DNA of 32,000 nucleotides from Candidatus Saccharimonadota bacterium (GTDB taxonomy: Bacteria; Patescibacteriota; Patescibacteriia; 2-12-FULL-60-25). Of this stretch, positions 9,260-23,141 are shown piece after piece (within the stretch, counting starts at the first letter, position 1; each line of letters starts with the position of its first letter). The notes beneath the pieces are model-generated. The model was not told the DNA's origin and did not search any database. It was given only the letters and a program-made list of their open reading frames with translations. The DNA lies in assembly GCA_963718585.1 (NCBI GenBank), contig OY970357.1, forward strand, positions 840,001 to 872,000. Direction: 5' to 3'. The position numbers and the translations under genes are program-made.

Positions 9260-12200
9260 TCACTTCAATCTTCCGACCCGCTCCTTCAACGCCGCGAGCT
9301 TGGCCTCGGCCTCGCCGTACTTCGCCTCCATGTCCTCGCGGACCTGACGCGGGGCCTTGGCGAGAAAATCGGGGTTCTTCAATTTGGCCGTGAGCGACGC
9401 GATATATGATTCCGTCGCATTCACCTCTTTTTCCAGTTTTGCCTTCTCCTTTTCAACGTCGATGGCTCCGACGAGGTTCAAGGCGACCATGCCACGCGAG
9501 GCCGGCAACGAGACCCAATCCGCCGGAACGGCGTCGACGAACTGCAGCGATGACGCGCGTATCAGTGCCGCCACGATATCAGCCTGATCCTTCAGGTCAT
9601 CCGCACCGGTCACGACCGCGTCGATCTCAACGGATGGTTCGATCCCGTTCTCCGCACGGAGGCGGCGCAACACGGTCACGACCTCACGAAGCGCTTCGAA
9701 CGTTCCATAGGCGTTCAATGCATCCGGGTCAGTAGAAATCTCAGACTGTGGCCACTTCGCGGTGATGAGCACTCCCTCAAACCCGGCCGTCTTCCAGATA
9801 TGTTCGGTCACGAACGGCATGAACGGATGCCACAACGCCAAGATCGTCTGCAAGATGTGACGAAGGATCGCCTCTTTCCCCTTTTCGATCTTCGCGATCT
9901 CCAGATACCAGTCCGCAAGATCACCCCAGGTGAAATCACGCAGCTCTTCCCCGGCCTGCGAGAATTCGTATCCTTCGAGCTTCTTGGTGACGGATCGGAC
10001 GACATCATTTAACCGCGTCAAGATCCACCGATCCGCCAGCGTCTTCGGTGTTGCGTCCGTCTCCGTCGCATCCCCGATCGTCATGAGGATGAACCGCGAG
10101 ATATTCCAGAGCTTGTTCACGAAGTTCCGTCCGCTCTCGATCTTCTCCGTGTAGTACTTCGAATCATTCCCTGGCGATACGCCGAGGATGAGACTCACGC
10201 GCAATGCATCGCAGCCGTACTCGTCAATGACCTCGATCGGATCGATCCCATTCCCCGATGACTTGGAGAATTTCTTTCCGTCTTTGTCACGCAGGATCCC
10301 GTGGATATACGCATCTTTGAATGGGATCTCGCCCAACGCATACGTCCCCATGAGGATCATACGCATGAGCCAGAGATACAGGATCTCATACCCCATCTGC
10401 ATCCAGCTTGTGGGATAGAAGGTCTCGAGATCCGTGTTCACGCGACCGTCATTGCCATACGCGCGCAACAGATAGCCGCCGTTCTTCGGATACGACTCGA
10501 GCCACTTCGCATCCGTGCCGTACGCGCCCATCGTACTGATGACATCGCCATGCGAAACGACGATCACCGTCTTGCCCATATGCGACTTCAGCAGATCATC
10601 CATGAACGCATCCGCTCGCGACTTCAACCCCGCATAGGACTCGACGGTGTCCATGGTCTTTCCCTCGATCCATTGCGCATACGGTCCGCGCGCGGCATTG
10701 AATTCCGCTTCGCTTCCGCCGCTGTATTTCCCAAGTCCGATCTCGTGCAACCTATCGTCAAACGAAAGTGGGAGTCCCAATTTCTCCGAAAGGATCTTCG
10801 CCGTTTCCTTTGCGCGTCGCACCGGCGACGAGATGATCTCGACCGGTCCCTCCTTTTTCAGATGCTCCGCAACCTCGGCGACCTGCTGGATCCCCACCTC
10901 GGTCAGTCCATTCTTCGGATTGTCGATCGCATCATCGATGAACCCCTCGGCGTTGGAATGCGCCTGCCCATGCCGCACGAAGAGCACGCGCGTAAGTGGC
11001 CAACCGAGCGTGGAGAATGGCCATGACCCGGAACTGAACCAGGTATCGAGCGTATCCGGGTCCTGTTCCCATCCTTCGCCCGGTGAGGTCTCCTGTACCC
11101 GGATGTCATCGCCCTTGTACCAGGCCGGGATCCGATGCCCCCACCACAGCTGACGCGACAGACACCAATCGCGGAGATTCTCCACGCGGTCGAGATAGAG
11201 TTTCGTGAACCGGTCCGGCGTGATCATGACCTTTTGTGGCGGATCGCCGCCGAGTCCCGTGGTCACAGCCTCGCGCATGAGGTCGCGCAGGCTCTTCCCG
11301 CGGTTCGGGATCATCTTCTTCATGTCGAGCCACCACTGCGTGAGCGGGATCGCTTCGATGATGTCGCCATACCGATCTGATGTCCCGACGTTCTGCGAGA
11401 TCTCCTCTTCTTTCTCCAACAAACCCTGATCGCGCAGCCACTTCACGAATTTCTCGCGTGCTTCCTCGACAGACCGTCCCGCGTATTCCGTACCGGCCTC
11501 TGTCGTCATCTTTCCATCTGTACCGATGACCGGGATGATACCTATCGGATCACCGGCCGCCTTCTGCTTTTCATACATCGCGAAATCCACGGCGCTGTGT
11601 GCCGGTGTCACGCCGAGCGCACCCGTACCGAAGGTCGGATCGACCTCTTCGTCCGCGATGACCTTGATCTCAAGCGGCTTTGCCGCACCGACATCGACCG
11701 TAAAGGTCTTACCGATGTAGTCCTTATATCGCGCATCTTTCGGATGCACGGCCACAGCCGTATCCCCAAGCTTGGTCTCAGGCCGCGTCGTTGCGATCGT
11801 GATGGGAAAATCTTTGGAGTATTTGAACGTATAGAGCTTGGACGGACGCTCCATATATACGATCTCATCGTCGGAGCAGGTAGACTGCCCTTTCACCGAC
11901 CAATTCACGACGCGGTATCCGCGATAGATGAGACCGTCCTCGTACATGCGTGTGAAGAGCGTGTTCACGGTCCGGCTCCGCGGCTCATCAAAGGTGTATG
12001 CCAACCGCGTCCAATCACAACTCGTCCCCACCTTGCGGATCTGCGAGAGGATCGTCGCCTTGCTCTGTTCCGCGAACGCGCGGATCTCTTCCAAGAGCTT
12101 TTCGCGACCGAGTTCCTGTCGGGGATTGGTCATTCCCTTTGCCATCAATAGTTTCTCGACCTTGGCCTGCGTCGCGATCGCCGCGTGATCCGTCCCCGGC

Positions 12201-12439
12201 ACGAGCAGCGTTTTGCGTCCACGCAACCGCTGGAACCGGACCATCGTATCCATGATCGCGTTTTCGAACGCGTGTCCCAAATGCAGGACACCGGTCACGT
12301 TCGGTGGCGGCATCATGACGCAGAACGGCTCCCCCTCTTCCGAAGGCTGGAAAGCGCCGGAGGCTTCCCATGCGCGATAGATATCATCTTCTACAGAGGA
12401 AGCGTCGTACGCTTTTGGCAGGTCATCAAAACGGGGCAT
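9260..12439 (-). CDS. valS: valine--tRNA ligase with an embedded histidine-phosphatase domain
   Basis: PPPNVTGVLHLGH (HIGH), CP1 editing motif TTRPETKLGDTAVAVHP, WFSSGSWPFSTLGWP, FYPTS, KFSKSSGN (KMSKS), C-terminal coiled coil. Start placed at MPRFDDLPKAYD (ATG 12437-12439). The ORF-track start at 12466 lies inside the predicted promoter spacer. Confidence 0.93.
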   Translation of the reverse strand: MPRFDDLPKAYDASSVEDDIYRAWEASGAFQPSEEGEPFCVMMPPPNVTGVLHLGHAFENAIMDTMVRFQRLRGRKTLLVPGTDHAAIATQAKVEKLLMAKGMTNPRQELGREKLLEEIRAFAEQSKATILSQIRKVGTSCDWTRLAYTFDEPRSRTVNTLFTRMYEDGLIYRGYRVVNWSVKGQSTCSDDEIVYMERPSKLYTFKYSKDFPITIATTRPETKLGDTAVAVHPKDARYKDYIGKTFTVDVGAAKPLEIKVIADEEVDPTFGTGALGVTPAHSAVDFAMYEKQKAAGDPIGIIPVIGTDGKMTTEAGTEYAGRSVEEAREKFVKWLRDQGLLEKEEEISQNVGTSDRYGDIIEAIPLTQWWLDMKKMIPNRGKSLRDLMREAVTTGLGGDPPQKVMITPDRFTKLYLDRVENLRDWCLSRQLWWGHRIPAWYKGDDIRVQETSPGEGWEQDPDTLDTWFSSGSWPFSTLGWPLTRVLFVRHGQAHSNAEGFIDDAIDNPKNGLTEVGIQQVAEVAEHLKKEGPVEIISSPVRRAKETAKILSEKLGLPLSFDDRLHEIGLGKYSGGSEAEFNAARGPYAQWIEGKTMDTVESYAGLKSRADAFMDDLLKSHMGKTVIVVSHGDVISTMGAYGTDAKWLESYPKNGGYLLRAYGNDGRVNTDLETFYPTSWMQMGYEILYLWLMRMILMGTYALGEIPFKDAYIHGILRDKDGKKFSKSSGNGIDPIEVIDEYGCDALRVSLILGVSPGNDSKYYTEKIESGRNFVNKLWNISRFILMTIGDATETDATPKTLADRWILTRLNDVVRSVTKKLEGYEFSQAGEELRDFTWGDLADWYLEIAKIEKGKEAILRHILQTILALWHPFMPFVTEHIWKTAGFEGVLITAKWPQSEISTDPDALNAYGTFEALREVVTVLRRLRAENGIEPSVEIDAVVTGADDLKDQADIVAALIRASSLQFVDAVPADWVSLPASRGMVALNLVGAIDVEKEKAKLEKEVNATESYIASLTAKLKNPDFLAKAPRQVREDMEAKYGEAEAKLAALKERVGRLK
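10427..10996 (-). other. in-frame histidine phosphatase (phosphoglycerate-mutase-like, His_Phos_1-type) domain inserted in the ValRS catalytic core
   Basis: ORF residues ~491-680: LTRVLFVRHGQAHSNAEG...SSPVRRAKETA...LHEIGLGKYSG...TVIVVSHGDVISTM. Carries the RHGxxxxN and SHG signature motifs. Lies between GWP and VNTDLETFYPTS, which are only ~8-10 residues apart in E. coli ValRS. Confidence 0.8.
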
Positions 12440-12450
12440 AAAGTACGTTG

Positions 12451-12479
12451 ATAGTACGTTGCGCATAGAATTGAGGCAA
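12451..12479 (-). promoter_or_regulatory. valS promoter candidate (TTGCCT-17-TACTAT), very short leader
   Basis: Minus strand: TTGCCT (12474-12479), 17-nt spacer, TACTAT (12451-12456), then 11 nt to the ATG at 12439. No SD. Confidence 0.35.
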
Positions 12480-12559
12480 CTGTCGGGATATCGGACGTTT
12501 TCGCGTGTTTTTGTAAATAAAAAACTTTACATCTCTTCGCTCTATAAAGCCAAAAACCC

Positions 12560-12588
12560 TTGACCTGTCGGGCATTCAAGGCTAAGCT
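12560..12588 (+). promoter_or_regulatory. promoter candidate (TTGACC-17-TAAGCT)
   Basis: TTGACC 12560-12565, 17-nt spacer, TAAGCT 12583-12588. 28 nt upstream of the ATG at 12617. Confidence 0.4.
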
Positions 12589-12616
12589 CACACATCCGAT
12601 TTTTGATGTCGGGACC

Positions 12617-13765
12617 ATGGCACTTACCGTCGAACAACAGACGACCGAGCTCATCACCCGCGCGAAGCGGATCCTCGTCGCCACGAAAGAACATGCCTCC
12701 GTCGACGCCCTTGCGGCCGTCGTCGCGCTTTTGACGTATCTCCGAAAACTCGACAAACAGGCAGACGGCGTGGTTCCGGGCTTCACTCCTGACCAGCTCC
12801 CAAAGTTTCTCGGAACAGCGGACGGCATCCGACCGCTCGCAGGTGCCATGCGTGCGTTCGAGCTCGCCCTCGATGTGACCAAGACCCCGATGGAAGAGAT
12901 CACGTATGATGTCCGCAATGGAAAACTCCTCGTCCATATCGTTCCGGAGACCGGCGAGTGGACGCCCGCAGACGTGAGCTTCCGCCATGGCGAAGATCGA
13001 TATGACCTCGTCATCGCCCTCGACTGCCCGGACCGCATCTCGCTCGGTCCCCTCTTTCGTGATCACGCGGATTTCCTATACCGCACACCCGTGATCAACA
13101 TCGACCGCGACCCGGGCAACGAACATTGGGGTCAGGTGAACCTTGTGGACCTCACGGCCGTGTCGACGAGCGAGATCTTGTACGGACTTTTCCAGCGATG
13201 GGATAAACATCAGATCGACGAATCGATCGCGACAGCGCTCCTCGCAGGTATGATCGCGAAGACCCAGTCGTTCCGGACGCAAAGCGTGACGCCGAAGACG
13301 CTTCAACATGCATCGGCACTCGTCGCCATGGGTGCCAAGCGCGAAGAGATCGTCCACGGACTCTGGCGCACGCGCTCGGTCGCCACGCTCCGACTCTGGG
13401 GGAAGGCGCTTTCGCGTCTTGAACAAGACCGTGAGCTCGGGATCGTTTGGGCCACGCTTTCCCGTCAGGATTTTGTGGACACGGGCGCGCACGAGAATGC
13501 GCTTGAAGGCGTCGTGGACGAACTCCTTTCCTACGCACCGGAAGCGAAGGTCGTGGTCTTGGTGCATGAGCAGGAAGGCAACGGTGGCGCATGCGTCACG
13601 ATCCACGCGGCCTCCTCACGAAATGCACAGGAGCTCGGGCGACCGTTCGGCGCCACGGGTTCACGTGAACGCGTGGACTTCTGTCTCACGCCCGGCCAAC
13701 CGCTCATCGAGGGCACGCAGATGGTCATCGACCGCCTCCGCCAGACCATCCAGGCGACGAAATAA
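12617..13765 (+). CDS. DHH/DHHA1 family phosphoesterase-like protein (NrnA-like) with degenerate catalytic motifs
   Basis: NrnA-like length and layout. The DHH motif position reads INIDRDPGNEHWG (DRD, not DHH). N-terminal DxD and C-terminal GGGH motifs are not evident. Start trimmed to MALTVEQQ. Confidence 0.7.
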   Translation: MALTVEQQTTELITRAKRILVATKEHASVDALAAVVALLTYLRKLDKQADGVVPGFTPDQLPKFLGTADGIRPLAGAMRAFELALDVTKTPMEEITYDVRNGKLLVHIVPETGEWTPADVSFRHGEDRYDLVIALDCPDRISLGPLFRDHADFLYRTPVINIDRDPGNEHWGQVNLVDLTAVSTSEILYGLFQRWDKHQIDESIATALLAGMIAKTQSFRTQSVTPKTLQHASALVAMGAKREEIVHGLWRTRSVATLRLWGKALSRLEQDRELGIVWATLSRQDFVDTGAHENALEGVVDELLSYAPEAKVVVLVHEQEGNGGACVTIHAASSRNAQELGRPFGATGSRERVDFCLTPGQPLIEGTQMVIDRLRQTIQATK

Positions 13766-15310: not shown

Positions 15311-15370
15311 CGCGATCGCAAAACATCCCGTGTGTGCGGGATGTTTTGAATGGTGGGCGCGAGAGGAGTC
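15311..15370. repeat. 60-bp perfect direct repeat, copy 2 (overlaps the 3' end of the intact tRNA-Val-GAC and its terminator)
   Basis: Identical to 15133-15192; the copies start 178 bp apart. Confidence 0.9.
15320..15347 (-). terminator. terminator hairpin after tRNA-Val(GAC)
   Basis: AAAACATCCCG-tgtgtg-CGGGATGTTTT 11-bp stem with an A/U-rich base. A duplicate lies at 15142-15169. Confidence 0.6.
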
Positions 15371-15427
15371 GAACCTCTGACCTCCACAATGTCAATGTGG
15401 CGCTCTAACCAACTGAGCTACGCGCCC
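15351..15427 (-). tRNA. tRNA-Val (anticodon GAC), CCA encoded
   Basis: Manual cloverleaf: GGGCGCG-TA-GCTC..GAGC-G-CCACA-TTGACAT-TGTGG-AGGTC-AGAGG-TTCGACT-CCTCT-CGCGCCC-ACCA. Confidence 0.88.
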
Positions 15428-16005: not shown

Positions 16006-17510
<1,505 letters not shown>

Positions 17511-17822: not shown

Positions 17823-18524
17823 TCAGGGAGCGATGACCGTCTGCCACCCGCCCCAAAGGTTTTGGGTCGGATCGATGGGCATCGAGGTGTCGAAGTCGAG
17901 GCCGACGATCTCGAACAGGCCGATGAACTGATGCCCGATCAACGACCCCGGGACGATGTCGTGGGGCGCGATATCAGCCCGGAACTCGAACGTCGCCTCC
18001 GTATCCTGCTGCAGGACGAACGGTCCAATGAATGACGCGCGGATCTCGGGGGTTCCGTCGTAGGCCTGCGCCACCTGGAACCCGGTCGGCTGCAGGATGT
18101 TGACGTCGCCGCCCATGAACGATGGATTTTGGAAATTCCAGTCGTTCTGATCCACGCCGCAAGCGTTCGTGCAGAAGAAGGTCGGCGCATCGGCTCGGAT
18201 GGCGAAATCCATTTCCGTGATCGTGACATCGCCGCACGAGGCCATGAGGGTCACAGTCACGAACGGAACGCCTTCGGTCCCGGCCGCGACCGCTCCATCA
18301 GGCGGACCGATGACGTTGAAACGGAACGTCGGTCCGACGCAGTCCGAAGATGGCTGATCCGTCCCGCCGTCGTCGACGGGCGGAGACGATGCGATCCGGC
18401 ACGGAGGCGGCGCATCGGCACAGCTCGGAATGTTCTGATCGAGCTTTGTCCCCGAAGGATCGACCTGCCCGCCACATGCGACAGCAAGGCATCCGGTCAG
18501 GACACTGAGAACGAAACGGGTCAT
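17823..18524 (-). CDS. Cys-rich lipoprotein of unknown function (233 aa)
   Basis: Trimmed to MTRFVLSVLTGCLAVAC|GG (lipobox LAVAC), preceded by AAGGAGA SD 5 nt upstream. The mature part looks beta-rich. No family recognised. Confidence 0.7.
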   Translation of the reverse strand: MTRFVLSVLTGCLAVACGGQVDPSGTKLDQNIPSCADAPPPCRIASSPPVDDGGTDQPSSDCVGPTFRFNVIGPPDGAVAAGTEGVPFVTVTLMASCGDVTITEMDFAIRADAPTFFCTNACGVDQNDWNFQNPSFMGGDVNILQPTGFQVAQAYDGTPEIRASFIGPFVLQQDTEATFEFRADIAPHDIVPGSLIGHQFIGLFEIVGLDFDTSMPIDPTQNLWGGWQTVIAP

Positions 18525-18575: not shown

Positions 18576-18604
18576 AACATACGCGAATCCGGTGTATTTG
18601 TCAA
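18576..18604 (-). promoter_or_regulatory. lipoprotein promoter (TTGACA-17-TATGTT)
   Basis: Minus strand: TTGACA (18599-18604), 17-nt spacer, TATGTT (18576-18581). Confidence 0.55.
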
Positions 18605-18627: not shown

Positions 18628-18674
18628 ACGTGGGACAGTTGACAAAATAGCGATTTTCGCGTATAGTCCCACGT
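18628..18674. promoter_or_regulatory. perfect 9-bp inverted repeat ACGTGGGAC-N29-GTCCCACGT bracketing the paralog-A promoter (operator candidate)
   Basis: Arms at 18628-18636 and 18666-18674. The left arm abuts the -35 box and the right arm overlaps the -10 box and TSS. Confidence 0.5.
18639..18667 (+). promoter_or_regulatory. paralog-A promoter (TTGACA-17-TATAGT)
   Basis: TTGACA 18639-18644, 17-nt spacer, TATAGT 18662-18667. Confidence 0.55.
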
Positions 18675-18720
18675 TCTTTCCAAAACCGATCTTCGGCATC
18701 TCACACAACAAGGAGTCGCC

Positions 18721-19362
18721 GTGAGCTTCCATAACTCGCAACGAGCATTCCTCATGATCCAGGCACTCGACGTGGTCGAAGCCTGTCTCGCGAAGGAGAG
18801 CGTGGACGAACGCGATGCTGCCATCCTGGCAGGGATCCCCCACCTTGGCCTCCCACCGCTGACCATGGGTCAGAGGCGGCCACTCGCTCTCCGGAAATTC
18901 GACGCCCCTCCGGGCTCCTGGTCCCAGGTGGCCGAGCTCATGATCCGCAGCGCCGCGAGCAAACAAAACCGTTCCAACGGCCTCGTCCTCCACGTCCTGC
19001 GTGCCACGCGTCGCTCCCTCCGCCTCGCCTGCAAGGCAGAGGACATCGAAATTCCCCGTCCGCCGCTCTACACCGGCCGGGTCACTGGCCTCCTGAACAA
19101 TGCCGTGGACCAAAACGTGGACCATGGCGACGAGGAGACCGACGCCGCGTACGAGGCCTGCGCGTGGATGCTACGCTCCGTCATCCCTCAGGAGGCCGAA
19201 CGACGCGAATTGTCCCTTGAGGACATCGCCGACTTCAACAAAGAAGTGGTCGACTTCCTCGAGGAGGTCCTTACGGACGCCAAGATCCCGGACCCACGAA
19301 AGACCGCTCATTCGTGGTTCCTCAACTTCATGGATAGCGTGGCCGCTCAAAAAGCCGCCTGA
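18721..19362 (+). CDS. uncharacterised protein, paralog A (213 aa)
   Basis: GTG start with AAGGAG 5 nt upstream. Shares LG-PP, G(R/K)(R/K)P, AP(P/A)GSW, PPL..RV..LL and AC.WM motifs with the next gene. Confidence 0.7.
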   Translation: MSFHNSQRAFLMIQALDVVEACLAKESVDERDAAILAGIPHLGLPPLTMGQRRPLALRKFDAPPGSWSQVAELMIRSAASKQNRSNGLVLHVLRATRRSLRLACKAEDIEIPRPPLYTGRVTGLLNNAVDQNVDHGDEETDAAYEACAWMLRSVIPQEAERRELSLEDIADFNKEVVDFLEEVLTDAKIPDPRKTAHSWFLNFMDSVAAQKAA

Positions 19363-19376
19363 TCCCTCATTTCTCA

Positions 19377-19411
19377 GCCCCACCGTGACCGAACGGTGGG
19401 GCTTTTCTTTT
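19377..19411 (+). terminator. Rho-independent terminator
   Basis: GCCCCACCG-tgaccgaa-CGGTGGGGC 9-bp stem followed by TTTTCTTTT. Confidence 0.75.
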
Positions 19412-19501
19412 CGCTTGCTATAGCGAATTTATGTTAAATAAGCCATTTTCAATACTGTTTATTTTTGTTTAAATTAAGCGAATATTGTGTAAGTTTATGC
19501 C

Positions 19502-19530
19502 TTGACAAACTGGTCTATCTGTGCTATATT
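19502..19530 (+). promoter_or_regulatory. paralog-B promoter (TTGACA-17-TGcTATATT, extended -10) inside an AT-rich island
   Basis: TTGACA 19502-19507, 17-nt spacer ending in TGC, TATATT 19525-19530. Confidence 0.6.
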
Positions 19531-19626
19531 ATTTGGTCAAAAAGGCTGAGAACGCCCAAGTAGACCGGCCGCATCTGCGACCGTCGTACCCCACAATCAA
19601 ACCCGATTCCCACCAGGAGGTGGTCC

Positions 19627-20769
19627 ATGAACACGATCGCAATCGATTCGAAGAAGCTCGAGATCCTGAACGTCGCTCTCGCCGCCATCGAGACCTGCCA
19701 GAAGAACGGCAAGGTCACGGTCGACGAGCTCGGCCCCATCTCGAGCGCGATCGCGCTCGGGATCCAGCCTCCGTACGTGGCAAAGGGCCGTAAGCCCTTC
19801 ACGCGCAAGGACGTGTCCGCACCCGCGGGCAGCTGGCAGCACTTCGCTGACGCCCTGGCTCAGCTCGAGTCCCAGGAATGGGACCGCGCGGCTCTGCAGG
19901 CCTCCACCAAGGAGACCGAGGACCCCATGAAGAAGGAGCGCTTCCAGAAGCGCCTCGGCTTCATGAACTTCCTCATGAGCGCGGTCCGCGGAGCGGTCTT
20001 CTACGCCGTGAAGCTGGAGGAAGAGGCCGTCCGACAGGCAGAGCAGAAGGCAGCGCGTGAGGCCGAGAAGGCACGCAGGGCAGCTGCGCTCGCCGCACTC
20101 TCCGACGAGGAGCGCGCGGCGCGCAAGGCGGCGGCCGAGGCGCTTCGAGCCGAACAGTCTCGGCGCGATCAGGCTCGCAAGAGCTTGATGGCCGCGGCCG
20201 AGTTCAACAGCTCGGCCCCTGCCCCGGCACCCACGCGCGACGATCGTGGACGGACGGTGCGTCAGCACCCCCCGCTCACGCCTGATCGCGTACGTGACCT
20301 CCTCGACCGCAAGGAACGGGATCTCACGACGGGCAACCGCGGCAAAGGCGAGGCCCTCCGCGACGCCTGTCGTTGGATGGTCGGCCTGGTCCTGCGCGAG
20401 CAGAACCGCCTCGACGACGCGACCTTGCAGCAGTGCAAGGGCGAAGTCACCATCGCGGCGACGTCGGCCTTCATGATCGACAACGGCGGGAATATGGCCG
20501 AGGCCGAGCGGCAGGCGCAGTCGTTCCTCGACGACTGCGTCCGGTTCAACCGCAATAAGGCGAACCTGGCCAAGGGCAAGCCTTCGCGCAAACCCAAGGC
20601 CTCGAACACAAAGAGGGACAACGCGCCGGCAACGGAGCGAAGCCCCGAACCCGTGGTCCAAGCCAAGACCGATCCTGCCCCGGCCCCTGTCGAGCCGCCT
20701 GCGCCCGAGGCCAAGCCGCGCCGCGTCTCCAAGCCGGCACCTCCGCCGGCAACCTGCTACGTCTCGTAG
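19627..20769 (+). CDS. uncharacterised protein, paralog B (380 aa) with Ala/Arg/Glu coiled-coil insert and Pro/Lys-rich tail
   Basis: ATG preceded by AGGAGG (19613-19618). N- and C-terminal blocks are homologous to paralog A. aa ~129-185 read EEEAVRQAEQKAAREAEKARRAAALAALSDEERAARKAAAEALRAEQSRRDQARK. The tail reads KGKPSRKPKASNTKR...PAPEAKPRRVSKPAPPPATCYVS. Confidence 0.7.
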   Translation: MNTIAIDSKKLEILNVALAAIETCQKNGKVTVDELGPISSAIALGIQPPYVAKGRKPFTRKDVSAPAGSWQHFADALAQLESQEWDRAALQASTKETEDPMKKERFQKRLGFMNFLMSAVRGAVFYAVKLEEEAVRQAEQKAAREAEKARRAAALAALSDEERAARKAAAEALRAEQSRRDQARKSLMAAAEFNSSAPAPAPTRDDRGRTVRQHPPLTPDRVRDLLDRKERDLTTGNRGKGEALRDACRWMVGLVLREQNRLDDATLQQCKGEVTIAATSAFMIDNGGNMAEAERQAQSFLDDCVRFNRNKANLAKGKPSRKPKASNTKRDNAPATERSPEPVVQAKTDPAPAPVEPPAPEAKPRRVSKPAPPPATCYVS

Positions 20770-20968: not shown

Positions 20969-20997
20969 TTGACAAAACCGACTTTTTTTGATATGTT
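20969..20997 (+). promoter_or_regulatory. promoter (TTGACA-17-TGaTATGTT, extended -10)
   Basis: TTGACA 20969-20974, 17-nt spacer, TATGTT 20992-20997. Predicted TSS near 21004. Confidence 0.5.
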
Positions 20998-21165: not shown

Positions 21166-22125
21166 ATGAAAAAGCACATCCTCATCACCGGCGGTGCCGG
21201 CTTCATCGGATCGCATCTCACAGATGCGCTGGTTCAGCGTGGCTATGAGGTCACGGTCCTCGACAAAAAATCCCCCGCGGAAAGCCTGTACGTCCATCCG
21301 GACGCCGGCGTCCTCCGCATCGATCTGACACATCCCGAGGCCATGGCGCTCGTCAAAGCACTCGCCCCGGACGTGATCGTCCACCTGGCGGCAAATGCCA
21401 ACGTAGCCAAATCCGTCGCCGATCCGGCGATGGACGCGGAGATCAACTATCTCGCGACGGTCCGTCTCCTTGAGACGGCCAAGGACCTCGGTGTGGAGAA
21501 ATTCATCTTCACGTCGACCGGCGGTGCGCTCTCTTCTGAGCACACCGTCCTGCCGACACCCGAAGATCGTCCGGCTGAACCGCTCTCCCCGTATGCCCGC
21601 CACAAGCTGGCATCCGAGCAGATGGGTGCGTTCTACGCCAAGACGCACGGGTTGCCGTTCGTGGCGCTGCGCCCGGCCAACGTCTATGGTCCGCGCCAGT
21701 CGCCGACCCAGGGCGAGGCCAATGTCATCGCGACGTTCGCCGAACGGATGCAGAAGAACGAACAGACGGTCGTGAATGGCACCGGCCTCCTGACACGTGA
21801 TTACGTCTATATCGATGACGTGGTCCGCGCGATCGTCCTGGCGCTTGAGAACGAAGATACCCTTGGCATCTTCAACATCGGATCTGGAACGGAAACGACC
21901 GTTCTCGACATCCATCGCCTGGTCGCAAAAGCTTCCGGCTATCCGGCCGCACCGGTCCACGGACCCGCGGCCAAAGGCGAACCCCAGCGATCCTGCCTCG
22001 ACATCACCAAGGCCAACACCGTCCTCGGCTGGCGGCCGACCGTGAGGCTCGAAGACGGGATCGAACGGACGGTCGCTTGGGTCGGACGTGAGAATACGAA
22101 GCCTGTCGCGATCGAAGCCGCGTAA
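21166..22125 (+). CDS. NAD-dependent epimerase/dehydratase (UDP-glucose 4-epimerase-like SDR)
   Basis: ILITGGAGFIGSHL Rossmann motif and catalytic YARHK (YxxxK). 319 aa. Confidence 0.9.
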   Translation: MKKHILITGGAGFIGSHLTDALVQRGYEVTVLDKKSPAESLYVHPDAGVLRIDLTHPEAMALVKALAPDVIVHLAANANVAKSVADPAMDAEINYLATVRLLETAKDLGVEKFIFTSTGGALSSEHTVLPTPEDRPAEPLSPYARHKLASEQMGAFYAKTHGLPFVALRPANVYGPRQSPTQGEANVIATFAERMQKNEQTVVNGTGLLTRDYVYIDDVVRAIVLALENEDTLGIFNIGSGTETTVLDIHRLVAKASGYPAAPVHGPAAKGEPQRSCLDITKANTVLGWRPTVRLEDGIERTVAWVGRENTKPVAIEAA

Positions 22126-22331: not shown

Positions 22332-23141
22332 TTACTTTATTATTTTCCGCGTCAGCCTCGCCCAATCATCTGGCGAAAGATCCTCAGCTCGTGCTTTCGA
22401 AGCAATGTCGACATCTTCCAACAGCCGCGCGGCGAGCTTCAAATTCGATGAGAGCAGTTTCCGAGGATGCGCAAACCCCCTCTTCGCGATCTCCATGATC
22501 TTCACGGGATCGATCCCCCAACGCTCTTCCCGTTCCGGCCACGGCATGGGAGAGATGCGGATCACGGCAGATTCGACCTTCGGTGCGGGATAGAATGCGC
22601 TCGCAGGAACACGGCGCGTGATCCGAGCAGACGAAGCGGACAGCGCGACCATGAGTGAGAGTAGGGACATCTTGTGATCGCGCATGACGATGCGCTCCGC
22701 AACTTCCCTCTGAATCAATGCCACGAGCATCTCCGGCGGATGTGGTGCCCAAAGCGCCTTCCGTAATGCGAACGATGTGATGCCATATGGCAGGTTCGAG
22801 ACGAACTTCCATTCTTCATCTCCCATCGCCTCATGCCAATGCACGTCCGTCGCATCCCCTTTGATCAGGGTGAATGCCTCATTAGCGAACCGCTCATCAA
22901 GATACGCCTGGAACCGCCGATCCTTTTCAATGGCCGTCACGTCTGCCCCGGCATCCAACAAGGCATGCGTCAACACGCCAAGCCCAGGCCCGATCTCAAG
23001 CACGCGATCTCCGGAGCGGATATTCGCTTCTTCGACGATCGTTGCGAGGACCGGCTTATTGATCAAAAAATGCTGACCGAGTCGTTTGTTCGGTCCGGCG
23101 CCGATCCCGGCGAGTGTCTGTTTGATCTCGGTGGGCGTCAT
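22332..23141 (-). CDS. rsmA: 16S rRNA (adenine1518/1519-N6)-dimethyltransferase
   Basis: LGQHFLINKPVL, SAM motif VLEIGPGLGVLT, SNLPYGITS. Confidence 0.92.
   Translation of the reverse strand: MTPTEIKQTLAGIGAGPNKRLGQHFLINKPVLATIVEEANIRSGDRVLEIGPGLGVLTHALLDAGADVTAIEKDRRFQAYLDERFANEAFTLIKGDATDVHWHEAMGDEEWKFVSNLPYGITSFALRKALWAPHPPEMLVALIQREVAERIVMRDHKMSLLSLMVALSASSARITRRVPASAFYPAPKVESAVIRISPMPWPEREERWGIDPVKIMEIAKRGFAHPRKLLSSNLKLAARLLEDVDIASKARAEDLSPDDWARLTRKIIK

What the first reader, a model, noticed from the sequence alone, without database searches (positions are those of the whole stretch)
18721..20769. Tandem pair of uncharacterised paralogs, each with a near-consensus promoter
The 213-aa and 380-aa products share collinear motifs:
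- ..AL..(V/I)E(A/T)C..
- LG(L/I)..PP
- G(Q/K)R(R/K)P
- AP(P/A)GSW
- PPL..RV..LL
- (E/D)AC.WM(L/V)
- (D/S)FL(E/D)(E/D)

An F(L/M)NF(M/L)(D/M)S(V/A)V helix is present in both, but at the C-terminus of A and in the middle of B. The (E/D)(A/T)C context occurs twice per protein, which hints at an internal duplication.

B additionally carries a ~57-aa Ala/Arg/Glu coiled-coil stretch and a Lys/Pro-rich tail that looks like a basic nucleic-acid-binding tail. Neither protein has a signal peptide, and I recognise neither as a known family.

Both genes have strong SDs and TTGACA-17-TATAGT / TTGACA-17-TGcTATATT promoters, implying high expression. They sit beside a divergently transcribed Cys-rich lipoprotein next to the 16S unit. 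This is the only clearly accessory-looking block in the window and the best candidate for an undescribed module.
Basis: seen in the sequence. Interest (0 to 1): 0.65.

Follow-up and report, generated by a model that had tools for sequence, protein, structure and literature searches.

The report
Conserved unknown protein pair beside 16S
Two neighbouring, strongly promoted genes in a small Patescibacteria genome encode an old pair of related all-helical proteins from a tiny family with no known relatives or matching structure; the pair sits at a fixed spot next to the 16S rRNA gene, and its function is still unknown.

Summary
ORF A (18721-19362, 213 aa) and ORF B (19627-20769, 380 aa) are real collinear paralogs: BLASTP E 8e-6, and profile-profile probability 99.7% (N domain) and 98.2% (C domain). 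Their promoters are the only two 11-of-12 consensus matches in the 32-kb window.

- **Undescribed family: yes.** Pfam, NCBIfam, PHROGs, PADLOC, PDB sequences, and Foldseek on confident AlphaFold models all found nothing. An exhaustive HMMER search of 1.84 billion representatives found only 19 other relatives.
- **Accessory block: no.** In every related contig with enough flanking sequence, the long form lies between a divergent 16S rRNA gene and convergent ksgA-tsaC-prfB.
- **Age of the pair.** The short-then-long tandem pair recurs in four other lineages, and the short forms form one clade (bootstrap 194/200). The duplication is therefore ancient.
- **Rejected details.** There is no internal duplication and no permuted helix, and the "coiled coil" looks like a charged single alpha-helix spacer.

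No polar residue is conserved, so an enzyme is unlikely. My best guess (about 0.35) is an abundant nucleic-acid-associated architectural protein that binds through its basic disordered tail. The tailless, acidic short paralog would act as a partner or modulator.

The parts
16006..17510 (-). 16S rRNA gene, with no 23S gene anywhere in the window. This is the conserved upstream, divergently oriented neighbour of the family's locus.
   Evidence: Rfam SSU_rRNA_bacteria, 1439 bits. The same arrangement occurs in L004, L005, L012, L013 and L014.
17823..18524 (-). Cys-rich lipoprotein gene (233 aa from MTRFVL...; 8 Cys, pI 4.1). It is a variable insert between the 16S gene and the pair.
   Evidence: ORF. 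The signal peptide with LTGC/AVAC lipobox is read directly from the sequence. There are no family hits. A homolog at 32% identity sits in the same place in L003 only.
18576..18604 (-). Promoter of the lipoprotein gene, TTGACA-17-TATGTT.
   Evidence: 10/12 match.
18639..18667 (+). Promoter of gene A, TTGACA-17-TATAGT.
   Evidence: 11/12 match. Equivalent promoters precede the short forms in L005, L007 and L008.
18710..18715 (+). Shine-Dalgarno site AAGGAG of gene A, 5 nt before the GTG start codon.
   Evidence: Sequence. It supports the GTG start over the database's ATG start at codon 12. Residues 1-11 align with other short forms and are modelled as helix.
18721..19362 (+). Gene A, the short paralog: 213 aa, pI 5.4, no tail. 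An N domain carries the APPGSW loop and a four-helix C domain packs against it in one compact all-alpha unit.
   Evidence: AlphaFold2 gives pLDDT 91.3 and pTM 0.72. It belongs to the short-form clade, bootstrap 194/200.
19376..19413 (+). Intrinsic terminator of gene A: an 11-bp stem followed by a T run.
   Evidence: Comparable hairpin-plus-T terminators follow the short forms in L005, L007, L008 and L011.
19420..19501 (+). AT-rich island upstream of B's -35 hexamer, in a genome of about 60% GC. It looks like an UP element.
   Evidence: Read directly from the sequence. Similar AT-rich stretches lie upstream of the long-form genes in L001-L004, L008 and L011.
19502..19530 (+). Promoter of gene B, TTGACA-17-TATATT with an extended -10 TG.
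   Evidence: 11/12 match. 12 of 13 long-form loci have TTGACA-17-TGn-TAnnn(T/A).
19537..19626 (+). 5' leader of B, about 90 nt. It has a 5'-proximal GC hairpin (19544-19556), a second hairpin, and the Shine-Dalgarno site AGGAGG at 19615-19620.
   Evidence: The first ~35 nt are about 75% identical among the pair-type loci, although the proteins are only about 33-34% identical. The first hairpin is kept with different stem sequences in all 10 leaders folded.
19627..20007 (+). Gene B, N domain plus central helix (aa 1-127). It carries the family signature LGIxPP...GRKP...APAGSW(P/Q)HF.
   Evidence: pLDDT 95-98. This is the most conserved part of the family.
20008..20208 (+). Gene B, Glu/Arg/Lys/Ala-rich helical spacer (aa 128-194).
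   Evidence: It continues the 95-residue helix H100-194 in the model. It is 38% charged and 31% Ala, and only 23% of the best a/d positions are hydrophobic. The insert is 0-70 aa across the family.
20209..20280 (+). Gene B, disordered Pro/Ala-rich linker (aa 195-218).
   Evidence: pLDDT is below 50 for residues 199-212. Linker length is 10-32 aa in the long forms.
20281..20571 (+). Gene B, four-helix C domain (aa 219-315) with the motifs HPPLTPDRVRDLL and DACRWM.
   Evidence: hhalign of short-form against long-form C domains gives 98.2%.
20572..20769 (+). Gene B, disordered basic Pro/Lys/Ala-rich tail (aa 316-380). It ends in ...RRVSKPAPPPATCYVS, then the stop codon.
   Evidence: pLDDT is 42-51. 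The tail region in the family alignment (73 residues) has net charge +9 and pI 10.4. Tails are basic in 18 of 19 tailed homologs. The end motif is shared with P0006 and P0008.
22332..23141 (-). ksgA/rsmA (16S rRNA dimethyladenosine transferase), the conserved convergent downstream neighbour. In this window an epimerase gene (21166-22125) is inserted in between.
   Evidence: Pfam RrnaAD, E 4.7e-40. The same neighbour is found in L003, L004, L005, L013, L016, L017 and the P0003 contig.

Best explanation
**Shown**
- A and B are members of a very small protein family restricted to one Patescibacteria clade. It has a compact all-alpha architecture with no described relative.
- The family's gene occupies a fixed chromosomal slot, divergent from the 16S rRNA gene and convergent with ksgA-tsaC-prfB. 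It always has its own near-consensus extended -10 promoter, an 80-105 nt leader and a strong ribosome-binding site.
- In one subclade an ancient duplication produced a conserved two-gene arrangement of two separate transcription units. The first encodes a short, tailless, mostly acidic form (A). The second encodes a long basic form (B).
- B inserts a charged helical spacer between the N and C domains. It also adds a disordered basic Pro/Lys/Ala tail that ends in a short conserved peptide.

**Inferred**
- Only Gly, Pro, Trp and Ala positions are invariant or nearly so, so the proteins are structural or binding proteins rather than enzymes.
- B is most likely an abundant architectural protein that attaches to nucleic acid through its basic tail. 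The target could be rRNA or ribosomal particles, or the nucleoid.
- The globular N and C domains and the terminal peptide would serve for self-association or for docking a partner.
- A keeps the globular module but lacks the spacer and tail. It would therefore act as a partner, cap or antagonist of B, in the way truncated paralogs modulate H-NS.
For: **Family and novelty**
- There are 19 further relatives among 1.84 billion representatives.
- Curated-library and PDB-sequence searches gave nothing significant.
- The models are confident (pLDDT 91.3 and 84.9), yet the best Foldseek E-values are 0.81 against PDB and 0.49 against BFVD, with no TM-score (normalised by query length) above 0.37.

**Fixed locus**
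- The 16S gene lies upstream in the window, L004, L005, L012, L013 and L014.
- ksgA lies downstream in seven related loci.

**Pair and purifying selection**
- The short-then-long pair occurs in L005, L007, L008 and L011.
- The short-form clade has bootstrap 194/200.
- dN/dS is 0.20 for the short form and 0.48 for the long form.

**Expression**
- These are the two best promoters in the window, and the promoter is conserved in relatives.
- The leaders carry a positionally conserved 5' hairpin.

**Non-enzymatic**
- The invariant or near-invariant columns are G, P, P, G, W and A only.

**Nucleic-acid-binding tail**
- Long-form tails have net charge +2 to +10 and pI 9.7-11.7 in 18 of 19 homologs, despite no sequence conservation.
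- The short forms have no tail, and three of four are acidic overall.

**Background**
- CPR genomes lack about half of the usual ribosome-biogenesis factors (PMC12641178).
Against: - No recognisable DNA- or RNA-binding fold was found.
- The family evolves fast: B is 30% identical to its L004 ortholog, while GroEL is 80% and KsgA 64% identical. The spacer length also varies widely. Neither is typical of core ribosomal components.
- Synteny at about 92% 16S identity could simply be inherited, without any functional link.
- The tail contains many acidic and Pro residues. It could be just a flexible tether for the terminal peptide.
- There are no expression data and no test of an A-B interaction.
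- The C-terminal peptide differs between subgroups (KAGL...KAANG against ...IYAS/CYVS), so any partner may differ too.
Confidence: 0.35

Rival explanations
1. The proteins form a protein-only cytoplasmic scaffold or cytoskeletal element, for example in division, polarity or attachment. The globular N and C modules would associate between molecules, the charged single alpha-helix would set spacing, and the basic tail plus terminal amphipathic peptide would anchor the assembly to the membrane or to a partner protein. A would cap or regulate the assembly.
For: - The spacer is rich in Glu, Arg, Lys and Ala and has few core hydrophobic residues. It resembles an ER/K single alpha-helix ruler.
- In several long forms the linker (10-14 aa) is too short to fold back along a 45-56-residue helix. 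In those proteins the N and C domains cannot pack within one chain as they do in A.
- Many long forms end in G-x-h-x-x-x-L-x-K-A-G-L, with a hydrophobic moment of 0.26-0.46. That is close to 0.38 for a MinD membrane-targeting sequence recalled from memory.
- Fast evolution and variable length are typical of such scaffolds.
- The best weak matches are helical-repeat proteins.
Against: - B in this window, and its closest relatives P0006 and P0008, lack the amphipathic motif.
- The hydrophobic moment is modest and the result is inconclusive.
- A conserved ...KAANG end after the helix is not expected for a plain membrane anchor.
- No division or cytoskeleton genes lie nearby.
Confidence: 0.22
2. 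The proteins act in transcription or rRNA synthesis. They would bind RNA polymerase or the rRNA promoter region, are expressed divergently from the rRNA promoter, and would regulate themselves through the conserved leader.
For: - In L005, L012, L013 and L014 the gene starts 400-600 bp from the 5' end of the divergent 16S gene.
- The start of the leader is more conserved than the protein.
- In L004 and L016 the 5' end of the leader pairs with the Shine-Dalgarno region.
Against: - No helix-turn-helix or other known DNA-binding or polymerase-binding domain was found. The TetR-family Foldseek matches are chance-level (E above 1, TM-score at most 0.33).
- In the window, L001-L004, L016 and L017, one or two surface-protein genes separate the gene from the 16S gene (L001 and L002 do not extend to a 16S gene). 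Direct promoter sharing is therefore not conserved.
- Leader structure z-scores are modest, from +0.3 to -3.0.
Confidence: 0.1
3. This is the first reader's view: an accessory or mobile module together with the lipoprotein, for example for defence, a toxin-antitoxin pair, or host interaction.
For: - Distribution is very narrow, and the sequences are orphan-like in word-index searches.
- The neighbouring surface and lipoprotein genes vary between genomes.
Against: - Chromosomal position is fixed in all related loci that have enough flanking sequence.
- GC3 is native.
- There are no PADLOC or PHROG hits. Nothing was found in IMG/VR, phage or plasmid collections, nor in BFVD.
- There is no signal peptide.
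- The lipoprotein is not a constant neighbour.
Confidence: 0.05
4. The proteins are an enzyme or a small-molecule-binding protein of unknown chemistry.
For: Nothing specific supports this. Cys occurs in the EAC/DAC contexts in A and B.
Against: - No polar or catalytic residue is conserved. Those Cys are not conserved across the family.
- The best weak structural and PDB-sequence matches are designed helical-repeat proteins, not enzymes sharing an active site.
Confidence: 0.05

Closest known systems
No homologous family (Pfam-A, NCBIfam, PHROGs, PADLOC, PDB sequences, PDB and BFVD structures)
   Same: Nothing reaches significance. The best hits are designed helical-repeat proteins: hmmsearch E 0.017, and Foldseek probability 0.66 with TM-score 0.37.
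   Different: Those matches reflect helical, Ala/Glu/Lys-rich composition rather than ancestry.
H-NS with its truncated or tailless modulators (H-NST, Hha); analogy only, from general knowledge
   Same: A full-length basic architectural protein is paired with a paralog or partner that keeps the association module but lacks the nucleic-acid-binding part.
   Different: There is no sequence or fold relation. The oligomerisation and DNA binding that define H-NS were not tested here. A and B are separate, strongly promoted transcription units at a housekeeping locus.
Nucleoid proteins with basic low-complexity tails (mycobacterial HupB/MDP1, chlamydial Hc1, AlgP); analogy only, from general knowledge
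   Same: A folded domain is followed by a disordered, basic Pro/Ala/Lys-rich C-terminal tail, and high expression is expected.
   Different: There is no HU or H1 fold. The tail is not built of PAKK-type repeats, contains acidic residues, and ends in a distinct conserved peptide.
Proteins with a disordered linker plus a C-terminal docking peptide (FtsZ, SSB); analogy only, from general knowledge
   Same: A variable, unconserved linker ends in a short conserved terminal motif. Here it is G-x-h-x-x-x-L-x-K-A-G-L...KAANG in single-gene lineages, and R-R-V/I...T-V/C-x-I/Y-Y/V-A/S in pair lineages.
   Different: The globular parts are unrelated, and the partner of the peptide is unknown.
ER/K single alpha-helix spacers (as in myosin VI and X); analogy only, from general knowledge
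   Same: The segment is highly charged, Ala-rich and poor in core hydrophobic residues. It is modelled as one straight helix and varies in length between orthologs.
   Different: Its stability as a monomeric helix was not tested. It may instead form a hairpin or an Ala-rich coiled coil.
Bacillus subtilis veg (small gene with a famously strong promoter lying near ksgA); recalled from memory
   Same: It is a strongly promoted gene of poorly understood function in the ksgA neighbourhood of a Gram-positive-type genome.
   Different: No Pfam family, Veg's included, was returned for either protein at E up to 1. Size and architecture are entirely different. The parallel is probably coincidental.

Membership tests
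Any curated protein family (Pfam-A, NCBIfam, PHROGs, PADLOC) | Profile match at or near the curated cut-off | tested here: not met
   Best hits have E of 0.03 or worse and lie far below the cut-offs. Pfam returned no family for more than one of the 21 members.
Any solved structure | Sequence-profile match, or a Foldseek match with E below 0.001 or TM-score above 0.5 | tested here: not met
   The best hmmsearch E against PDB sequences is 0.017. Foldseek E is 0.81 or worse against PDB and 0.49 or worse against BFVD, with query-normalised TM-score at most 0.37, although the models have pLDDT 85-91.
   The best register has only 17-38% Leu/Ile/Val/Met/Phe/Trp/Tyr at a/d positions. The segments are 34-48% charged and 13-37% Ala.
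Internally duplicated two-repeat protein | Detectable similarity between the N and C halves | tested here: not met
   Shuffle z-score is -0.4 for A. hhalign of N profile against C profile gives probability 0.3%.
Anti-phage defence or toxin-antitoxin module / mobile accessory gene | Match to known defence proteins; variable genomic location; presence on phages or plasmids; foreign composition | tested here: not met
   There are no PADLOC hits. The locus is fixed. Nothing was found in IMG/VR, phage or plasmid collections. GC3 is native.
Ribosomal protein or ribosome-biogenesis factor | Physical association with ribosomal particles | not testable with these tools
   Only context is available: adjacency to the 16S gene and to ksgA, tsaC and prfB.
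Ribosomal protein or ribosome-biogenesis factor | Slow evolution and broad conservation typical of core translation components | tested here: not met
   B is 30% identical to its ortholog, against 76-80% for RF2 and GroEL. Only 21 representatives exist in the whole library.
Nucleoid-associated protein | DNA binding and high abundance | not testable with these tools
   Support is indirect only: basic tails and conserved strong promoters.
C-terminal membrane-targeting amphipathic helix (MinD/FtsA type) | Terminal helix with a high hydrophobic moment, preceded by basic residues | tested here: inconclusive
   The hydrophobic moment is 0.26-0.46 in nine homologs. The motif is absent from B itself.
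Bacterial lipoprotein (neighbouring gene 17823-18524) | N-terminal signal peptide with a lipobox Cys | tested here: met
   MTRFVLSVLTGCLAVACGG is read directly from the translation. The homolog in L003 has LFGAC.

The most novel reading that the evidence does not exclude
The family is a clade-specific component of the translation apparatus: a new ribosome-associated or 30S-assembly protein pair. It would be co-regulated with the adjacent 16S rRNA gene and would compensate for ribosome-biogenesis factors that Patescibacteria have lost. It would have a fold not yet seen in any solved structure.
Probability: 0.15. Interest if true: 0.8.

Novelty: categorically new. Interest (0 to 1): 0.5.

Why it matters
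Patescibacteria make up a large share of bacterial diversity, and almost none have been cultured. Much of their biology is hidden in genes of unknown function.

This pair combines four unusual features:
- the strongest promoters in the region;
- a fixed position beside the 16S rRNA gene;
- an ancient, retained short/long duplication;
- a confidently predicted structure with no known counterpart.

That makes it a concrete and tractable candidate for a major, abundant cellular component of one clade, possibly tied to the ribosome or the nucleoid. Its very narrow distribution limits how general any result would be. The function proposed here is inference, not demonstration.

Tried and rejected
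**Searches that found little or nothing**
- Word-index homology searches with A, with B, and with a 19-sequence profile found almost nothing beyond self hits. Only the exhaustive HMMER search revealed the family.
- The first genome-collection scan, with the A+B profile, found nothing. A narrower alignment then found one genome and three metagenome loci.
- An exact look-up of B returned no contig.
- The IMG/VR scan and tblastn against phage and plasmid records were empty.
- Two literature searches gave no paper on this family. One gave background on ribosome-biogenesis factors missing in CPR bacteria.

**Alignments I did not use**
- A global MAFFT alignment of full A against full B misaligned the C domains. 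I used a version with the spacer removed instead.

**Hypotheses tested and rejected**
- The TetR-like Foldseek matches are chance-level.
- Internal duplication is rejected.
- A classical coiled coil is rejected.
- Fold-back of the linker along the spacer is not supported: length correlation is only 0.35 among long forms.
- No further paralogs lie in the window or in any fetched locus.

**Left inconclusive**
- Covariation in the leader RNA could not be established with five sequences. The 12-sequence alignment was out of register, and one of its rows had wrong coordinates.
Full report

In-frame GC3 is 0.77 for A and 0.85 for B, in line with GroEL (0.80) and the other housekeeping genes. Both are therefore native coding sequence, and the long antisense ORFs are by-products of high GC content.

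A public gene call starts A at the ATG of codon 12. I prefer the GTG start for three reasons. It has an AAGGAG Shine-Dalgarno site 5 nt upstream. Residues 1-11 align with other short forms. They are also modelled as helix.

The paralogy is significant and collinear:
- BLASTP gives E 8e-6 for the N-terminal 71 residues, plus a second ordered segment at E 0.004.
- Against residue shuffles, the N domains score z = 11.8 and the C domains z = 6.6.
- At profile level, short against long forms give 99.7% (N domain) and 98.2% (C domain).

The promoters TTGACA-17-TATAGT and TTGACA-17-TG-TATATT are confirmed. They are the only two 11/12 matches in the entire 32-kb window. They score above the sites upstream of tRNA-Val and of the GroEL gene. 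A clean terminator at 19376-19403 separates the genes.

**2. Details that did not survive**

- No internal duplication. N against C halves give z = -0.4 and hhalign probability 0.3%.
- No permuted helix. B's central FMNFLMSAV helix aligns with A's LVLHVLRATRRSL. Both models have the same order of helices: five, then four in A, and five, then four in B.
- A's C-terminal FLNFMDSVA is the last helix of the C domain. It aligns with B's SFLDDCVRF.
- The Cys in the EAC/DAC contexts are not conserved across the family.
- The Ala/Arg/Glu stretch has only 23% hydrophobic residues at its best heptad a/d positions, and the family range is 17-38%. It is highly charged and modelled as one straight 95-residue helix. 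It looks like an ER/K-type single alpha-helix spacer rather than a classical coiled coil.

**3. What family is it?**

Pfam, NCBIfam, PHROGs and PADLOC give nothing for A, B or the lipoprotein. PDB sequence searches are also empty. Word-index searches returned only the window's own proteins, on a 1,084,458-bp contig.

An exhaustive HMMER search used a profile of A plus B with the spacer removed. Against 1.84 billion representatives it found 19 further proteins of 235-438 aa, with E from 2e-31 to 5e-6. One of them is annotated 'hypothetical protein [Patescibacteria group bacterium]'.

The family alignment shows the following parts:
- an N domain with the signature LGIxPP...(G)RKP(L/F)...APxGSWPHF;
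- a central helix;
- an insert of 0-70 residues plus a Pro-rich linker;
- a four-helix C domain with the motifs HPxLTxERVxxLL and EAxxxAxRW/F;
- in the long forms, a disordered basic tail.

The only invariant or nearly invariant positions are Gly, Pro, Pro, Gly, Trp and Ala. This argues against an enzyme.

AlphaFold2 with this shallow alignment gives confident all-alpha models: A at pLDDT 91.3 and pTM 0.72, and B at pLDDT 84.9 with its domains at 95-98. Foldseek finds no analog in PDB or BFVD. The best E-values are 0.81 and 0.49, and query-normalised TM-scores are at most 0.37.

**4. Genomic context: core locus, not accessory**

The window is housekeeping DNA. In order it carries ValRS, a SpoU methylase, tRNA-Val, a lone 16S gene, the lipoprotein, A, B, an epimerase, KsgA, TsaC, a release factor and GroEL.

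Related loci show the same slot:

| Locus | Arrangement |
|---|---|
| L004 (Patescibacteria MAG Ess09-17, 1.24-Mb contig) | 16S, surface protein, long form, KsgA, TsaC, RF2, GroEL |
| L005 (272-kb contig) | ValRS ... SpoU ... 16S, short form, long form, KsgA, TsaC, RF |
| L012, L013, L014 | long form 570-600 bp from the 5' end of a divergent 16S gene |
| L003, L013, L016, L017, P0003 contig | KsgA convergent downstream |

Window and L004 share 92% 16S identity, 80% for GroEL, 64% for KsgA, but only 30% for B. The position is conserved while the sequence evolves fast.

Nothing similar occurs in IMG/VR, phage records or plasmids. No extra paralogs lie in the window or in any fetched locus.

The lipoprotein is not a constant neighbour. 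A true homolog is adjacent only in L003 (32% identity). L001 has an unrelated lipoprotein. L002, L004, L016 and L017 have an FN3-like membrane-anchored protein instead, and L003 has one as well, upstream of its lipoprotein. Several loci have nothing between the gene and the 16S.

**5. The pair is old and conserved**

A short form followed by a long form occurs in four further lineages. Each gene has its own promoter, and a terminator lies between them. The loci are L005, L007, L008/L009 and L011.

The four short forms make one clade with bootstrap 194/200. The duplication therefore predates these lineages. Both genes are under purifying selection between L008 and L011, with dN/dS of 0.20 and 0.48.

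Short forms lack the insert and tail, and three of four are acidic (pI 5.4-5.7). Four of the five short forms whose C-termini were seen end in -AA. Long forms are basic (pI about 9-9.8), with tails of net charge +2 to +10 in 18 of 19 homologs.

Single-gene lineages mostly end in G-x-h-x-x-x-L-x-K-A-G-L...KAANG(D). The long forms known or likely to be paired (B, P0006, P0008) end in R-R-V/I...T-V/C-x-(I)-Y-A/V-S.

**6. Expression architecture**

Twelve of 13 long-form loci have TTGACA-17-TGn-TAnnn(T/A). All short-form loci examined have a comparable promoter.

Most long-form promoters are preceded by AT-rich DNA. All are followed by a 77-105 nt leader, 144 nt in L013, and a GGAGG-type ribosome-binding site.

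All ten leaders folded have a small GC hairpin starting 7-22 nt from the inferred 5' end, with different stem sequences, and then a second hairpin. Overall z-scores are modest, from +0.3 to -3.0. Among pair-type loci the first ~35 nt of the leader are better conserved than the protein. Five sequences are too few to prove covariation.

High expression is thus a well-supported inference, not a measurement.

**7. How it most likely works**

Shown: a non-catalytic, cytoplasmic, all-alpha module. In long forms its two halves are separated by a charged helical spacer. Long forms also add a basic disordered tail with a terminal peptide.

Inferred: the long form is an abundant architectural protein that binds nucleic acid through the tail. 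The target could be rRNA or ribosomes, as the fixed 16S/ksgA/tsaC/prfB neighbourhood and the paucity of assembly factors in CPR bacteria suggest (PMC12641178). It could equally be the nucleoid. The tailless short form would act as partner or antagonist. I give this 0.35.

A protein-only scaffold with intermolecular N-to-C contacts is the main rival, at 0.22. It is favoured by linkers that are too short to fold back along the spacer in several members. A transcription-linked role gets 0.10, and accessory or enzymatic readings about 0.05 each.

**8. Comparison with known systems, and verdict**

There is no homology to any described family or solved fold, so membership in any known family fails wherever it was tested. 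All resemblances are analogies of architecture:
- H-NS with its truncated modulators;
- basic-tailed nucleoid proteins;
- linker-plus-terminal-peptide proteins such as FtsZ and SSB;
- ER/K helices.

As a protein family it is new. Its kind of function is unknown. Interest is moderate. The locus is striking and experimentally tractable, but the family is confined to a narrow clade, and lineage-specific hypothetical proteins are common in these genomes.

Noticed in passing
window 9260-12466 (-); also L005 1-2938 (-): The valyl-tRNA synthetase carries a complete histidine-phosphatase domain (Pfam His_Phos_1, E 3e-35) inserted at residues 494-650, inside the catalytic core. The related contig L005 has the same fusion.
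   Followed up: partly
window 16006-17510 (-) and 15351-15427 (-): The 16S rRNA gene stands alone. Its 3' neighbour, about 580 bp away, is a tRNA-Val(GAC) preceded by its own promoter-like site and terminator-like hairpin, and there is no 23S or 5S gene in the 32-kb window. L004 and L005 likewise show only a 16S gene and a nearby tRNA gene.
   Followed up: partly
window 19537-19626; L001-L005, L007, L008, L012, L016 leaders: The long-form genes have an 80-105 nt 5' leader. A small GC hairpin sits at a conserved position near the 5' end, with stem sequences that differ between loci (GGC/GCC, GCC/GGC, AGCC/GGCT, GCCT/AGGC, GGCG/CGCC and others). In pair-type loci the first ~35 nt are more conserved than the protein. 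In L004 and L016 the 5' end pairs with the Shine-Dalgarno region. This could be an mRNA-stabilising or regulatory element.
   Followed up: partly
window 17823-18524 (-); L003 857-1621 (-); L004 8914-9750; L002 1538-2374; L003 69-668; L016 6932-7771: The gap between the 16S gene and the family's gene is a hot spot for different secreted proteins. These are a Cys-rich lipoprotein (window, L003), an unrelated lipoprotein (L001), or an FN3-like protein with a C-terminal membrane anchor (L002, L003, L004, L016, L017). None matches a curated family.
   Followed up: partly
C-termini of A (window 19351-19359), P0012, P0021 and the L011 short form: Four of the five short-form C-termini seen end in Ala-Ala (QKAA, DQAA, VHAA, AHAA). 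This is reminiscent of ssrA-like ClpXP recognition ends, so the short paralog might be proteolytically unstable.
   Followed up: no
window 12391-13765: Several overlapping ORFs of 170-400 aa lie on both strands between ValRS and the SpoU methylase. The two tested had no Pfam match, so the true gene content here is unresolved.
   Followed up: no
window 20969-20997 and 21166-22125 (+): An NAD-dependent epimerase gene with its own 10/12 extended -10 promoter is inserted between B and ksgA. In L003 and L013 epimerase genes lie on the far side of ksgA, so their position is variable.
   Followed up: partly
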